This document shows positions 46,301 through 49,300 of a DNA stretch of 64,000 bases, piece by piece. Source of the DNA: Escherichia coli (GTDB taxonomy: Bacteria; Pseudomonadota; Gammaproteobacteria; Enterobacterales; Enterobacteriaceae); NCBI RefSeq assembly GCF_030013205.1, contig NZ_CP122648.1. The stretch is one strand, 5' to 3'. Made by a program: the position numbers. Position 1 is the stretch's first letter. The number at the start of each line of letters is the position of its first letter.

Positions 46301-49300
46301 CAGCGTCGCTGGATTGACCTGAACGCCAGCAGCAACATGCTGCAAAGTAAATCCGTGCGCCTTACGCACATTCCGTAATGGTGATTGCATATGACCTCCA
46401 CATATTGCGTGATGAGCATATTATTTCACGCAAATATTTTGCGCAAGTTGATTTGCTTAACGCGCAATAAAGAAATGTAATAAACGCATGAACATAGGAA
46501 ACCGAGTCAGACAACTTCGCCAGGCGAAGAACATGAAAATCGCCGATCTCGCTGAAGCAATAGGAGTGGATGCGGCGAATATCTCACGCCTGGAAACAGG
46601 TAAGCAGAAACAATTCACTGAACAAGCCCTGAGTAATATTGCCAAGAGCTTAGGTGTTGATATTGCTGATCTCTTTACCTCAGACTTCAAAAGTAATACT
46701 GTATGTAAAAACAGTATTAGTGAGGATGTTGCGCAGGTGAAGGATGTATTCCGTATTGAAATGCTGGATGTCAGTGCCAGTGCGGGAAATGGCCTTATCC
46801 AGGGCGGTGATGTCATTGATGTGATTCATGCCATTGAATACAGAACTGATAATGCTGTATCGATGTTTGGTGGACGGCCAGCCAATCACATTAAAGTTAT
46901 CAACGTTCGTGGGGACAGTATGTGTCCAACCATTGAGCCAGGAGATCTCATCTTCGTTGATGTCAGTATCAATCAGTTTGATGGAGATGGTATCTATGTA
47001 TTTGGTTTTGATGATAAAATTTATGTCAAACGACTGCAAATGATACCTGACAAACTACTGGTGATTTCTGATAACCAGATTTACCGTGAATGGGGAATTA
47101 CCAGCGAAAATGAACACCGGTTTATGGTCTTTGGAAAGGTCTTAATCAGCCAGTCACAAACCCTTAAGCGACACAATTAACCCTTACCTCCTCATCAATT
47201 AGCCACCCAAAGGTGGCTTTTCATCACCCTTTAAATTGCATATCTCGCAACAAAAACACTTGCATAATGCGCAACTTCATTTTATCTTTCTTTCCAGACA
47301 AACAAACAAGGTACTAACAAAATTTGGTTGTAACACGGCGTATGGCACATGCGTCGTTAGCGGTCTGGGGACGTTAAAGGGGACAATCCACTCCTTGCTC
47401 GGGCAAACAAACCAGGTAGCCGGAATGTGCAAGTCAATGATGATGCTGATAAGACGCCTAACCAGCGTGGCGATTCGGTTTGACGCCTGGGAAGAGACCA
47501 GGGTGCAACGATGAGGGCATTTATGGAGCCGCGACAAAGTGTGGTGCCGTAACTGGCTAAGTGCTCTCAGCGTTGTGGTAATCCGCGAAATGGCGCGGCG
47601 GTAAGTATGGCGGGGTTACTCTTTCCCCGTTGAGGACACCGGATTGTCAGGTTGACCATACGCCTGAGTGACAACCCCACCACAACAGCCACTGCTTTGG
47701 CGGTACCAGTTTGTACCCTTGCTTCCGGCTGGTACCGCTCTTTTTACAAAACAGAGAAGAGCATCACCGGACGACGAGCTCATAACCCAATCCATCCGGG
47801 CGGCTGCCACCGCAGGTGTTCTTCTCCGTTTTGTGGAGAAACCAACCGACCTTGCAGGGTCGATATGATGAGGAGCAGCAAAATGGCTAGCGAACGCAGT
47901 ACTGATGTGCAGGCATTTATTGGGGAGCTGGACGGCGGCGTATTTGAAACCAAAATCGGCGCAGTTCTCAGTGAAGTCGCTTCCGGTGTGATGAACACGA
48001 AAACCAAAGGTAAGGTCTCGCTCAACCTGGAAATCGAACCGTTTGATGAGAATCGTGTGAAAATCAAACACAAACTCTCGTATGTTCGCCCGACTAACCG
48101 CGGGAAAATTTCCGAAGAAGACACCACCGAAACGCCGATGTATGTCAATCGCGGTGGTCGCCTGACTATTCTGCAGGAAGACCAGGGACAATTACTGACT
48201 CTTGCTGGTGAACCTGACGGAAAACTCCGCGCAGCAGGTCATTAATATCGTTCTTAATTAACTGATTATTTATCTCATCACTGAATATCTTTATATAGTG
48301 AGGACTTATTATGTCTCAGAACTTAGACGCAACCGCAATTAATCAAATCCATGCCCTTATTTCTGCTCAGGGTGTTAATGAAATTATCAGTAAGATTGGT
48401 GCCGATGCTGTGGCATTGCCTGAGAATTTCCGCATTCATGATCTGGAAAAATTTAATTTAAATCGCTTCCGTTTCCGTGGTGCGCTTTCCACTGCCAGCA
48501 TCGATGACTTTACCCGTTATTCTAAAGATCTTGCAGATGAAGGCACCCGCTGCTTTATCGATGCTGATAATATGCGTGCCGTCAGTGTGCTTAACCTGGG
48601 TACTATTGATGAACCAGGTCACGCAGATAACACCGCCACTCTCAAACTGAAAAAGACAGCACCGTTCTCTGCTCTGTTGTCTGTTAATGGCGAGCGTAAC
48701 TCCCAGAAATCACTGGCAGAATGGATTGAAGACTGGGCCGACTACCTTGTGGGCTTTGATGCTAATGGTGACACCATTCAGGCAACCAAAGCGGCTGCGG
48801 CAGTCCGTAAAATCACAATTGAAGCAAACCAGACCGCTGATTTTGAAGACAATGACTTCAGCGGCAAACGCTCCCTGATGGAGTCTGTCGAAGCGAAAAC
48901 CAAAGACATTATGCCAGTGGCATTTGAATTTAAATGCGTTCCGTTTGAAGGCCTGAAAGAACGTCCGTTTAAATTACGCCTCAGCATTATCACTGGCGAT
49001 CGTCCTGTACTGGTTCTGCGCATTATTCAGCTGGAAGCGATGCAGGAAGAAATGGCTAACGAATTTCGTGATCTGCTTGTTGAGAAATTCAAAGACAGCA
49101 AAGTAGAAACCTTTATTGGTACTTTCACCGCCTGATTTCATTACTGCAAATGCCCCTGCGGGGGCATTTATGGAAACGTAATTAACTCAATAATCACCGG
49201 ATGGTGAGAGCTTCCTTTTAGCAGAATTCAGCGCGGTGCAGCGCATATAAAGTGGAGAACTAAATGTCATTTATTAAAACTTTTTCCGGGAAGCATTTTT

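What the first reader, a model, noticed from the sequence alone, without database searches (positions are those of the whole stretch)
46391..46487. Operator repeats in the cro/cI divergent region
The 97-bp region between divergent cro-like and cI-like genes holds TTGCGTGA-N13-TCACGCAA and the palindrome TTGCGCAA, plus a further AACGCGCAA copy. These look like repressor operators and define the immunity specificity of this prophage.
Basis: seen in the sequence. Interest (0 to 1): 0.25.

Follow-up and report, generated by a model that had tools for sequence, protein, structure and literature searches.

The report
Prophage repressor operators, re-defined

Summary
Observation confirmed. All the motifs are at the stated coordinates. 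The 97-bp spacer holds 5 TTGCG/CGCAA half-sites against 0.23 expected, the densest stretch in the 64-kb window.

Interpretation partly supported. Footprinting across about 25 lineages (E. coli to Serratia/Providencia, repressor identity down to 52%) shows the conserved unit is tTTGCgtaWtacGCAAa.
- O_R1 (46405-46419) lies over the inferred P_R −10/+1.
- O_R3 (46453-46467) lies over the inferred P_RM −35.
- O_R2 (46439-46453) is a conserved half-site block over the P_R −35.
- O_L2 (47236) and O_L1 (47260) lie after the cI terminator, over an inferred P_L.

These four full sites are the top four PWM hits in the window, even when the window's own clade is left out of the matrix. A further candidate site lies inside cro codons 8-12; it is degenerate in the window.

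The immunity module is that of phages mEp460, SfII and Stx2a_1447 and occurs in about 1040 of 5426 complete E. coli genomes. I found no published operator definition for it. This is an ordinary lambdoid switch, a new member of a known kind, and of low interest. Binding, start sites and occupancy order are inferred, not shown.

The parts
46130..46390 (-). cro-like gene (86 aa, HTH_3)
   Evidence: ORF; Pfam HTH_3 E=5.8e-10; annotated Cro in mEp460, SfII and PhiR63_1.
46488..47180 (+). cI-like repressor (230 aa; N-terminal XRE-type HTH, C-terminal S24 LexA/UmuD-like autocleavage domain)
   Evidence: Pfam Peptidase_S24 E=6.5e-19 plus HTH families; PHROG 'transcriptional repressor'/'CI-like repressor'. 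GDSM Ser and VKRL Lys align to UmuD. Ala99-Gly100, Ser144 and Lys181 are invariant in relatives.
46405..46419 (.). O_R1: TTGCGTGATGAGCAT, a full operator (17-mer 46404-46420). It overlaps the inferred P_R -10 and start site.
   Evidence: TTGCG and GCAT columns are at least 1.6 bits across 18 and 25 lineages. PWM 16.4 bits, or 14.9 with the window's clade left out, 4th best of 63,984 positions. The homologous position (-84) is among the top hits in 17 of 17 divergent loci.
46426..46433 (.). A clade-specific extra half-site, 14 bp offset from O_R1; not part of the conserved set.
   Evidence: As a full site it scores -1.8 bits, or -0.4 with the clade left out. CGCAA is intact in 4 of 25 representatives. 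Its presence does not track the CII type.
46439..46453 (.). O_R2: TTGCGCAAGTTGATT. Invariant left half-site block TTGCGCAAGT with a degenerate right half. It overlaps the inferred P_R -35 and is centred at -42 from the cI ATG.
   Evidence: Invariant in 18 lineages. It is a full site in C. amalonaticus (TTGCGCAAGTCGCAT, 15.7 bits) and nearly full in the Cronobacter and Morganella outgroups (ATGCGCAAGGCGCTT). In the window it scores only -1.6 bits.
46453..46467 (.). O_R3: TTGCTTAACGCGCAA, a full operator. It overlaps the inferred P_RM -35 and spacer.
   Evidence: Best PWM hit in the window (18.2 bits; 16.6 with the clade left out). Its CGCAA half is conserved in 25 representatives although the search pattern did not fix it. 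Position -36 is a top hit in all 17 divergent loci.
46441..46446 (-). Inferred P_R -35 (TTGCGC on the minus strand)
   Evidence: Read from the sequence; invariant; 17-bp spacer to the -10. Not called by the consensus scanner, because only 3 of 6 bases match TTGACA.
46418..46423 (-). Inferred P_R -10 (TAATAT on the minus strand; TAAYAT in relatives)
   Evidence: Conserved columns GCATnTTA. The overlap with the end of O_R1 explains why O_R1 ends GCAT rather than GCAA in every lineage (inference).
46453..46458 (+). Inferred P_RM -35 (TTGCTT)
   Evidence: Lies 17 bp upstream of the conserved TGTAAT; it coincides with the left half of O_R3.
46476..46481 (+). Inferred P_RM -10 (TGTAAT). It ends 7 nt before the A of the cI ATG, implying a leaderless or near-leaderless cI mRNA.
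   Evidence: TGTAAT is conserved at a fixed distance from the ATG in most lineages (a few Pantoea/Mixta/Phaseolibacter lineages have TTAAAT/TTTAAC). There is no Shine-Dalgarno sequence upstream of the ATG. The start site is inferred, not measured.
47202..47221 (+). Terminator after cI: GCCACC-CAAA-GGTGGC followed by TTTT
   Evidence: Sequence. The homologous hairpin is annotated as a putative rho-independent terminator in SfII and is conserved in relatives.
47236..47250 (.). O_L2: TTGCATATCTCGCAA, a full operator
   Evidence: Exact TTGC-N7-GCAA; repeat family D1 links it to 46453. PWM 17.7 bits, or 16.8 with the clade left out. A conserved pair is present in nearly all relatives, 22-24 bp apart in most.
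47260..47274 (.). O_L1: TTGCATAATGCGCAA, a full operator overlapping the inferred P_L (-35 TTGCAT 47260-47265, 17 bp, -10 TATCTT 47283-47288)
   Evidence: 17.9 bits, or 17.1 with the clade left out. A TAnnnT box at a fixed distance is conserved in relatives. In ST64B, an ncRNA and genes downstream of CI are induced together with the lytic genes (PMC7067206).
46355..46369 (.). Candidate cro-internal operator (GTGCGCCTTACGCAC; cro codons 8-12). Degenerate in the window's clade.
   Evidence: A recurrent 5th hit at -134/-135 scores 13-19 bits in 10 of 17 divergent loci. Synonymous codon choice is biased toward TTG-CGN-AAA-TCG-CAA. At least 7 of 8 core bases match in 13 of 25 representatives. The window copy scores 6.7 bits, rank 17 of 63,984.
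45586..46137 (-). CII-like gene (YmfL; Pfam Phage_CP76), downstream of cro in the P_R operon
   Evidence: Pfam E=7.9e-15; PHROG 'CII-like transcriptional activator'; PGAP names it ymfL.

Best explanation
This is the O_R control region of a lambda-type genetic switch.

The cI-like repressor has a 434/XRE-type helix-turn-helix domain and a LexA-like self-cleaving domain. It most likely binds as a dimer to a 15-17 bp palindrome with consensus tTTGCgtaWtacGCAAa, that is TTGC-N7-GCAA.

The spacer carries:
- O_R1, a full site at 46405-46419, over the -10 and start site of the rightward promoter P_R, which drives cro, the CII-like gene and the lytic genes on the minus strand.
- O_R3, a full site at 46453-46467, over the -35 of the repressor's own promoter P_RM.
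- O_R2 at 46439-46453, which abuts O_R3. It has an invariant left half-site and a weak right half, and it lies over the P_R -35, centred at -42 from the cI start.

A second pair, O_L2 at 47236 and O_L1 at 47260, sits 24 bp apart just after the cI terminator, over a leftward early promoter P_L.

Repressor bound at O_R1/O_R2 and at O_L1/O_L2 would keep P_R and P_L off in the lysogen. O_R3 would give negative autoregulation. RecA-stimulated self-cleavage would release all of them on DNA damage. Cro, also an XRE-type HTH protein, probably uses the same sites.

Shown by the data: the motifs, their conservation and positions, and their exclusive association with this repressor type. Inferred: binding itself, the promoters and start sites (including a leaderless cI mRNA), the order of occupancy, and use of the sites by Cro.
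For: Gene identities.

Footprint: only TTGCG/GCAT (O_R1), TTGCGCAAGT (O_R2), TTTGC/CGCAA (O_R3) and the two -10 boxes stay conserved. This holds in 6 relatives, 18 lineages and 25 representatives below 92% identity. The central bases of each site vary. The recognition helix ...ANISR(L/V)ETGKQK is conserved in these relatives, with minor variation in the first residues in a few lineages.

Specificity: the four full sites are the four best PWM hits in the 64-kb window (16.4-18.2 bits; next best 14.1). They remain the top four when the window's clade is left out of the matrix. In 17 divergent loci, the leave-clade-out top hits fall at the same positions: -84, -36, about +745 and about +770.

Reverse test: the DNA block TTGCGCAAGT-N3-TTTGC, searched alone in viral contigs, lies 49 nt upstream of an ETGKQK-type repressor ATG in 110 of 120 hits.

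Specificity controls:
- Morganella IME1369_01 and Cronobacter ENT47670 have an altered region after the helix and carry ATGCG-N5-CGCAT units in the same three positions, with the same 14-bp O_R2/O_R3 offset.
- Fels-1 has TATGT-N7-ACATA.
- e14 YmfK has an unrelated DNA-binding domain but the same gene layout, and carries TGTAC...GTACA repeats with no PWM hit above 7.8 bits.

Natural variation in 80 same-repressor loci: 4 variable positions in the 12 central operator bases, against 2 in the 28 core bases.

Independent expression hint: in ST64B, an ncRNA and two genes downstream of CI are induced by DNA-damaging stress together with the lytic genes (PMC7067206).
Against: There is no binding, footprint or start-site data for this repressor; nothing was found in the searchable literature.

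The generic sigma-70 scanner did not call any of the three inferred promoters, because their -35 boxes match TTGACA at only 3 of 6 bases.

O_R2 in the window scores -1.6 bits as a full site. Part of its invariance may simply reflect the P_R -35 box.

O_R2 and O_R3 share a base (14-bp offset), so simultaneous occupancy by two dimers is uncertain.

The best-scoring O_R site is O_R3, over the repressor's own promoter. That is unlike lambda's affinity order if PWM score tracks affinity.

Conservation within the close clade is partly simple shared ancestry.
Confidence: 0.8

Rival explanations
1. One reading: the 29-bp inverted repeat TTGCGTGA-N13-TCACGCAA is itself one operator, with half-sites two helical turns apart. 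TTGCGCAA and AACGCGCAA would be further copies.
For: The repeat is exact and unlikely by chance. The whole spacer has a 32-nt pseudo-dyad: 46403-46434 against 46438-46469, 72% complementary. The right-hand 29-mer TTGCGCAA-N13-..GCGCAA has the same outer geometry and is conserved everywhere.
Against: The right arm is absent in most lineages that keep the same recognition helix and the same O_R1, O_R2 and O_R3. The O_L sites are stand-alone 15-mers 22-24 bp apart in most relatives, with no 29-bp partner. Outgroup relatives also use 15-17 bp units.
Confidence: 0.08
2. Mirror-composite variant, compatible with the main model. In the window's clade, each side of O_R is a 'one-and-a-half' operator: a full site plus an abutting site at a 14-bp offset that keeps only its distal half-site (O_R1+X on the left, O_R2+O_R3 on the right). 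TCACGCAA would then be a working auxiliary half-site that increases repressor occupancy over the P_R spacer.
For: X sits exactly 14 bp from O_R1, the same offset as O_R2 to O_R3 (item I1). CGCAA at that exact position is intact in the window clade and, separately, in Pantoea ARC607 (59% YmfL identity, 61% repressor identity), and is 4/5 in Klebsiella P7641. That is more than a 1.6% per-lineage chance expectation. From my own knowledge, abutting or overlapping LexA boxes in colicin promoters are a precedent for two dimers at such an offset.
Against: X is intact in only 4 of 25 representatives. It overlaps the variable part of the P_R spacer. Two of the X-bearing groups are close relatives, so they count as few independent events.
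Confidence: 0.25
3. The inverted repeat is a binding site for the CII-like (CP76/YmfL) activator rather than for the repressor. From memory, phage 186 CII uses inverted half-sites about two turns apart.
For: The gene after cro is in Pfam Phage_CP76. The arm centres are 21 bp apart.
Against: ST64B and Eeyore carry YmfL homologues at 60-69% identity but lack the arm, while Pantoea ARC607 at 59% has it. The left arm is the universally conserved O_R1 half-site. No plausible -10 box lies at the right distance for a plus-strand establishment promoter. I could not confirm the geometry of the 186 CII site in the held papers.
Confidence: 0.03
4. The TTGC repeats are only -35-like promoter boxes (TTGCGC, TTGCTT, TTGCAT) of back-to-back promoters, and no repressor binds them.
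For: Three of the TTGC half-sites coincide with inferred -35 hexamers.
Against: The GCAA partner exactly 7 bp away is equally conserved. O_R1 and O_L2 do not sit at any -35 box. The motif is palindromic, and it changes together with the repressor's DNA-binding domain in the outgroups and in e14.
Confidence: 0.03

Closest known systems
Phage lambda O_R/O_L with CI, Cro, P_R, P_RM and P_L
   Same: Divergent cI and cro genes. A repressor with an N-terminal HTH and a C-terminal LexA-like cleavage domain. Several partially palindromic ~17-bp operators overlapping back-to-back promoters. A second operator cluster after the repressor gene over a co-directional early promoter. A site centred at -42 from the cI start, as for lambda O_R2, and a cI ATG placed as for a leaderless P_RM transcript. 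The lambda facts are from established knowledge; the local facts are.
   Different: The operator sequence is unrelated. The DNA-binding domain is XRE/434-type and Cro is an HTH_3 protein. O_R spacing is 34 and 14 bp start to start, not 24 and 23. O_R2 abuts O_R3 and is only a half-site in this clade. O_L has two sites, not three. There is a possible extra site inside cro. No N or cIII gene is evident. CII is of the CP76 family rather than lambda-type.
Immunity module of mEp460, PhiR63_1, Stx2a_1447/WGPS2, 1720a-02 and SfII (annotated cI/cro/cII)
   Same: The same genes and spacer: 96-98% DNA identity over 1221 bp (SfII 91%), and the spacer sequence is essentially identical. The same module at 100% occurs in E. 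coli ETEC4079 and is present in about 1040 of 5426 complete E. coli genomes.
   Different: In the window the module sits in a defective prophage with a truncated rusA and no replication genes. No record annotates operators. mEp460 annotates the repressor from Met16.
Phage 434 and P22 repressor/Cro systems (XRE-type HTH, 14-18 bp operators)
   Same: The fold class of the DNA-binding domain: the nearest solved HTH hits are 434-derived and XRE domains, at E about 5e-4. Both repressor and Cro are HTH_3-type, so shared operators are plausible.
   Different: Sequence similarity is marginal. The operators differ (434 uses ACAA-N6-TTGT, from my own knowledge). There is no solved complex for this family.
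E. coli K-12 e14 YmfK-YmfT-YmfL region
   Same: The same gene order and the same placement of repeats: between the divergent genes, and again after the repressor's terminator. The ymfL-type CII gene is shared.
   Different: The repressor's N-terminal domain is unrelated; only the S24 domain aligns. The repeats are of the TGTAC...GTACA type, and the PWM finds nothing. It is therefore a different immunity specificity.
Operators inside or beyond the cro-like gene in other temperate phages (for example TP901-1 O_D, from my own knowledge)
   Same: A repressor-type site located downstream of the lytic promoter, within the first lytic gene.
   Different: Here it is only a sequence prediction, and it is degenerate in the window itself. 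The distance from O_R1 is 50 bp, far shorter than in those looping systems.

Membership tests
Lambdoid CI/Cro switch region (O_R/O_L type) | Divergently transcribed repressor (DNA-binding domain plus S24 autocleavage domain) and small Cro-type regulator | tested here: met
Lambdoid CI/Cro switch region (O_R/O_L type) | Several copies of one partially palindromic 14-18 bp operator in the intergenic spacer | tested here: met
   Two full sites plus a conserved half-site block. PWM and footprint.
Lambdoid CI/Cro switch region (O_R/O_L type) | Operators overlap the divergent promoters | tested here: inconclusive
   Conserved -10 boxes (TAAYAT on the minus strand, TGTAAT on the plus strand) and TTGCNN -35 boxes with 17-bp spacers overlap the sites. 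However, the consensus scanner did not call them, and no start-site data exist.
Lambdoid CI/Cro switch region (O_R/O_L type) | A second operator cluster controlling an early promoter on the far side of the repressor gene | tested here: met
   Sites at 47236 and 47260, conserved in relatives. Indirect expression support comes from ST64B.
Lambdoid CI/Cro switch region (O_R/O_L type) | Repressor and Cro physically bind these sites with differential affinity | not testable with these tools
   Needs EMSA or footprinting. None was found in the literature.
Lambda-like tripartite O_R geometry specifically (three 17-bp sites about 23-24 bp apart) | Three full sites at about 2.3-turn spacing | tested here: not met
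   Start-to-start spacings are 34 and 14 bp and are fixed in all lineages. The position 24 bp from O_R1 scores -48.9 bits.
mEp460/SfII-type immunity group | The same repressor and the same operator region as the named phages | tested here: met
   96-98% DNA identity over repressor, spacer and cro. The repressor N-terminal 70 aa is 97-99% identical, and the spacer aligns without gaps. Cross-immunity itself was not tested.
Phage 186 CII (CP76) binding site, as a reading of the 29-bp inverted repeat | The site co-occurs with the cognate CII and lies at an establishment promoter reading toward cI | tested here: not met
   Arm presence does not follow the YmfL type. No suitable promoter is present.
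LexA (SOS) box | CTGT-N8-ACAG | tested here: not met
   The 97-bp sequence contains no CTGT or ACAG motif.

The most novel reading that the evidence does not exclude
The switch is wired differently from lambda's and is conserved across Enterobacterales. It would have four repressor sites on the P_R side: one inside cro, O_R1, and an abutting O_R2/O_R3 pair at a 14-bp offset. Of the abutting pair, only one could be fully engaged at a time, so a single repressor would toggle between activating and repressing its own leaderless gene. Because the recognition helix and operator consensus are shared from E. coli and Salmonella to Klebsiella, Pantoea, Providencia and Serratia, prophages of different genera, including Stx2a phages, would be mutually immune.
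Probability: 0.25. Interest if true: 0.4.

Novelty: new member of a known kind. Interest (0 to 1): 0.2.

Why it matters
The finding has modest importance. This immunity module is common: it is in about a fifth of complete E. coli genomes and is carried by some Stx2a-converting phages, by Shigella SfII and, in diverged form, by Salmonella ST64B. A defined operator consensus with site coordinates gives a usable handle for three things: predicting cross-immunity, annotating P_R, P_RM and P_L in these prophages, and designing reporter or binding experiments on Stx-phage induction. It does not change what is known about how such switches work.

Tried and rejected
- The generic promoter/terminator scan found none of the inferred promoters. 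Its one plus-strand hit (TCCACA-16-TATTAT) is not conserved in relatives, so I rejected it. Its 'terminator' at 46354-46370 is the cro-internal palindrome.
- A lambda-like middle site 24 bp from O_R1 (46428-46444, CGCAAATATTTTGCG) has reversed half-sites, scores -48.9 bits and is not conserved. Rejected.
- Rfam on 44000-50000 returned no hit, and the fold of the P_L leader 47290-47560 is no better than shuffles, z = -0.47. There is no known RNA element here.
- The PDB sequence search gave only marginal XRE and UmuD hits, so there is no template complex.
- Literature searches for mEp460, ST64B, SfII, ymfK and the literal operator string found no operator definition. The ST64B genome paper is not held. 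The geometry of the 186 CII site could not be confirmed in the held text.
- The first IMG/VR scan by protein returned only 99-100% identical repressors.
- A second cluster of TTGCG/CGCAA near 54500 lies inside the host rimI gene, has the wrong spacing and gives no PWM hit. It is chance.
- I tried to pin the specificity-determining residues from helix positions, but positions 1-2 of the helix vary (AA, SA, GA, QA, GN) without any change in operator. No assignment was made.
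Full report
**What is there.** Window 46391-46487 is a 97-bp spacer. On one side is a minus-strand 86-aa HTH_3 gene (46130-46390). 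On the other is a plus-strand 230-aa gene (46488-47180) with an N-terminal XRE-type HTH and a C-terminal Peptidase_S24 domain. The minus-strand gene is followed by a CP76-family CII-like gene (ymfL; 45586-46137). After that come a truncated rusA, KilA-N, DUF968 and antiterminator-Q genes. Downstream of the repressor lie yfdP, yfdQ and yfdR-like genes and an integrase next to yjjG. It is therefore the immunity region of a defective lambdoid prophage.

The exact TTGCGTGA-N13-TCACGCAA at 46405-46433 is the only match in the window, against 0.04 expected. The spacer holds 5 TTGCG/CGCAA pentamers against 0.23 expected (P about 4e-6), the maximum of any 97-bp window.

**Where else it occurs.** The 1.2-kb module is 100% identical in E. 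coli ETEC4079 and is present in 1042 of 5426 complete E. coli genomes. Identities to named phages are:
- 96-98%: mEp460, PhiR63_1, phiSTEC1575-Stx2k, 1720a-02, Stx2a_1447 and Stx2a_WGPS2
- 91%: Shigella SfII
- 74%: Salmonella ST64B
- about 70%: Klebsiella phages
- 67%: Eeyore

It is not met: 80 IMG/VR loci with a repressor at least 99% identical show 15 spacer haplotypes, each 1-3 substitutions from the window sequence.

**What is actually conserved.** Close relatives cannot show which bases matter. I therefore used a one-genome-per-species scan, which gave 19 loci at 32-94% repressor identity from Citrobacter, Kluyvera, Klebsiella, Trabulsiella, Pantoea, Mixta, Rosenbergiella, Cedecea, Providencia, Serratia and Phaseolibacter. 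Their recognition helix ...ANISR(L/V)ETGKQK is largely conserved, with variation in its first residues in several lineages, so conserved operators are expected. The spacer aligns without gaps in most of them.

Only these blocks stay conserved:
- TTGCG (46405-09)
- GCAT followed by nTTA (46416-23)
- TTGCGCAAGT (46439-48)
- TTTGC (46452-56)
- CGCAA (46463-67)
- TGTAAT (46476-81)
- the ATG

The arm is intact only in the window's clade and in Pantoea ARC607.

Downstream of the repressor's terminator, nearly every lineage has two more TTGC-N7-GCA(A/T) units, 22-24 bp apart in most. In the window these are at 47236 and 47260.

**The operator model.** A symmetrised matrix from 69 sites gives tTTGCgtaWtacGCAAa. 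Positions 3-5 and 13-15 (TGC...GCA) are nearly invariant, and the centre is A/T-rich but free.

| Position | Site | Score (bits) |
|---|---|---|
| 46452 | O_R3 | 18.2 |
| 47259 | O_L1 | 17.9 |
| 47235 | O_L2 | 17.7 |
| 46404 | O_R1 | 16.4 |
| 30325 | next best in the window | 14.1 |

The four full sites are the four best hits in the 64-kb window. The same four lead when the matrix is built without the window's clade (14.9-17.1 bits).

In 17 divergent loci scanned whole (about 3.7 kb) with their own clade left out, the top hits fall at the same four positions: -84, -36, about +745 and about +770 from the repressor ATG.

They differ in conservation. O_R2's left half is invariant. O_R2 is a full site in C. 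amalonaticus (15.7 bits) and nearly full in the outgroups. X is intact in only 4 of 25 representatives.

**Link between operator and repressor.**
- Searching viral contigs for the DNA block alone (TTGCGCAAGT-N3-TTTGC) gave 120 hits. In 110 of them an ATG lies exactly 49 nt downstream and opens an ETGKQK-type repressor; the remaining 10 are scattered chance matches.
- Morganella IME1369_01 and Cronobacter ENT47670 (...SRLERxxQG) keep the three-site layout and the 14-bp O_R2/O_R3 offset, but with ATGCG-N5-CGCAT units.
- Fels-1 uses TATGT-N7-ACATA.
- E. coli K-12 e14 has the same gene order but an unrelated DNA-binding domain. It has TGTAC...GTACA repeats and no PWM hit.

I could not assign the residues that set specificity, because helix positions 1-2 vary without any change in operator.

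**How it probably works (inferred).**

*P_R (minus strand).* TTGCGC (46446 to 46441), a 17-bp spacer and TAATAT (46423 to 46418) form a conserved promoter candidate, with a start near 46411 and the cro GGAGG box just downstream. O_R1 then covers about -8 to +7, and O_R2 covers the -35. The end of O_R1 overlaps the -10 box, which explains why O_R1 ends GCAT rather than GCAA in every lineage.

*P_RM (plus strand).* TTGCTT (46453-58), a 17-bp spacer and TGTAAT (46476-81) end 7 nt before the A of the cI ATG. No Shine-Dalgarno sequence is present, so the cI mRNA is probably leaderless, as in lambda. O_R3 covers -35 to -21, which fits negative autoregulation. O_R2 is centred at -42, the position of lambda O_R2, which suggests possible activation.

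*P_L.* After the cI terminator (47202-47221), O_L1 overlaps TTGCAT (47260-65), a 17-bp spacer and TATCTT (47283-88). O_L2 lies 24 bp upstream.

*Induction.* Ala99-Gly100, Ser144 and Lys181 are invariant and align to UmuD's catalytic residues, which fits RecA-stimulated self-cleavage. [quoted passage not shown] That is what a repressor-controlled P_L would give.

*Caveats.*
- The generic promoter scanner did not call these promoters, because their -35 boxes match TTGACA at only 3 of 6 bases.
- No start sites are measured.
- Two dimers on O_R2 and O_R3, 14 bp apart, may not fit together.

It joins the left half of O_R1 to X, which lies exactly 14 bp from O_R1. That is the same offset as O_R2 to O_R3, and it gives the spacer a 32-nt pseudo-dyad in this clade (item I1). 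X may be a real auxiliary half-site in this clade; I put that at about 0.25. It is not part of the conserved design.

I also tested the idea that the repeat is a site for the CP76-type CII, whose phage 186 relative I recall as binding half-sites two turns apart. The arm's presence does not follow the YmfL type: ST64B and Eeyore have the protein but not the arm, and Pantoea ARC607 has both at only 59% identity.

**Extra finding.** A fifth recurrent PWM hit lies inside cro, at codons 8-12 (L-R-K-S-Q/H = TTG CGN AAA TCG CAA). It scores 13-19 bits in 10 of 17 lineages. Synonymous choices there are fixed, whereas the same amino acids a few codons earlier vary freely:
- Leu is TTG in every lineage with Leu at this codon.
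- Arg is CGN in all of these but Serratia (AGG).
- Ser is TCG in every lineage with Ser there.

In 25 representatives, 13 match at least 7 of 8 core bases. The window's copy (46355-46369, GTGCGCCTTACGCAC) keeps the TGCG/CGCA core but loses the outer T/A. It scores 6.7 bits, rank 17 of 63,984.

**Comparison and novelty.** The system works like lambda's O_R/O_L switch and passes the general membership tests: divergent genes, multiple palindromic operators, and a second cluster after cI. It does not share lambda's tripartite 23-24 bp geometry, its operator sequence or its protein folds. The DNA-binding domains are of the 434/XRE type, with no close solved structure.

The module itself is already in databases as annotated cI/cro of mEp460, SfII and several Stx2a phages. 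I found no published operator definition for it. I rate it a new member of a known kind and of low general interest. It has some practical value because the module is widespread and occurs in Stx2a phages.

Noticed in passing
window 46355-46369 (inside cro, codons 8-12): A candidate extra operator inside the cro coding sequence. It is near-consensus (TTGCGNAAATCGCAA) in most divergent lineages, with synonymous codon choice fixed toward the motif. It is degenerate (GTGCG...CGCAC) in the window's clade. The promoter/terminator scan had flagged it as a 'terminator-like' hairpin.
   Followed up: partly
window 45386-45589 and 45586-46137: The prophage is defective. The RusA ORF is only the C-terminal 67 aa (Pfam profile positions 76-123) and directly follows the CII-like gene. 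There are no replication (O/P) genes, whereas SfII, mEp460 and Eeyore have them here. PGAP marks the same rusA as a pseudogene in ETEC4079.
   Followed up: partly
window 47251-47259; loci L006-L085: Among loci with a 99-100% identical repressor, the spacer between O_L2 and O_L1 carries a 1-bp indel, giving 23 or 24 bp start to start. The O_L region as a whole is much more variable (47 haplotypes) than O_R (15 haplotypes). Across genera the O_L pair spacing is 22-24 bp in most lineages, while O_R geometry is fixed.
   Followed up: partly
L002 (ST64B) about 2590-2640, L003, L089, L090, L093, and e14 L106 about 3140-3190 (minus strand): Downstream of the inferred P_L, many relatives and e14 share a conserved leader element, AACAGGCAGGACGCCCACGAAGTAGCC. 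Further into the same left operon, Rfam gives sub-threshold STnc100 (ST64B, L002 2955-3073) and STnc100/DicF-like (e14, L106 2193-2414) hits. The window has a different, ORF-free leader (47290-47880) with no Rfam hit and no unusual fold.
   Followed up: partly
L002 (ST64B) 345-533, minus strand: ST64B carries a full C4 antisense RNA (79.7 bits) and isrK (64.3 bits) beyond its CII-like gene. This is a P1/P7-type c4/antirepressor module alongside the cI/cro switch. It is absent from the window.
   Followed up: no
L005 (mEp460) 1889-1934; L003 (Eeyore) 990-1884: Probable annotation errors in public records. The mEp460 repressor is annotated from Met16, which would cut off helix 1 of the HTH; the upstream ATG is conserved in all relatives. 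Eeyore's cro is not annotated; instead the record annotates an N-terminally extended cII ORF that overlaps cro, plus two small plus-strand ORFs in and next to cro.
   Followed up: no
window 30325-30341, 53284-53300, 7213-7229: The next-best PWM hits outside the immunity region score 14.1, 12.0 and 11.9 bits. At a threshold of 12 bits there are 6 hits against about 0.2 in shuffles; four of the six are the operators and the other two are 30325 and 53284. I did not examine their gene context.
   Followed up: no
window 54590-54665 (inside the host rimI gene): A second local cluster of TTGCG/CGCAA pentamers, including TTGCGTAATCGCAA with a 4-bp rather than a 5-bp centre. It is in coding sequence and gives no PWM hit, so I judged it chance.
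   Followed up: yes
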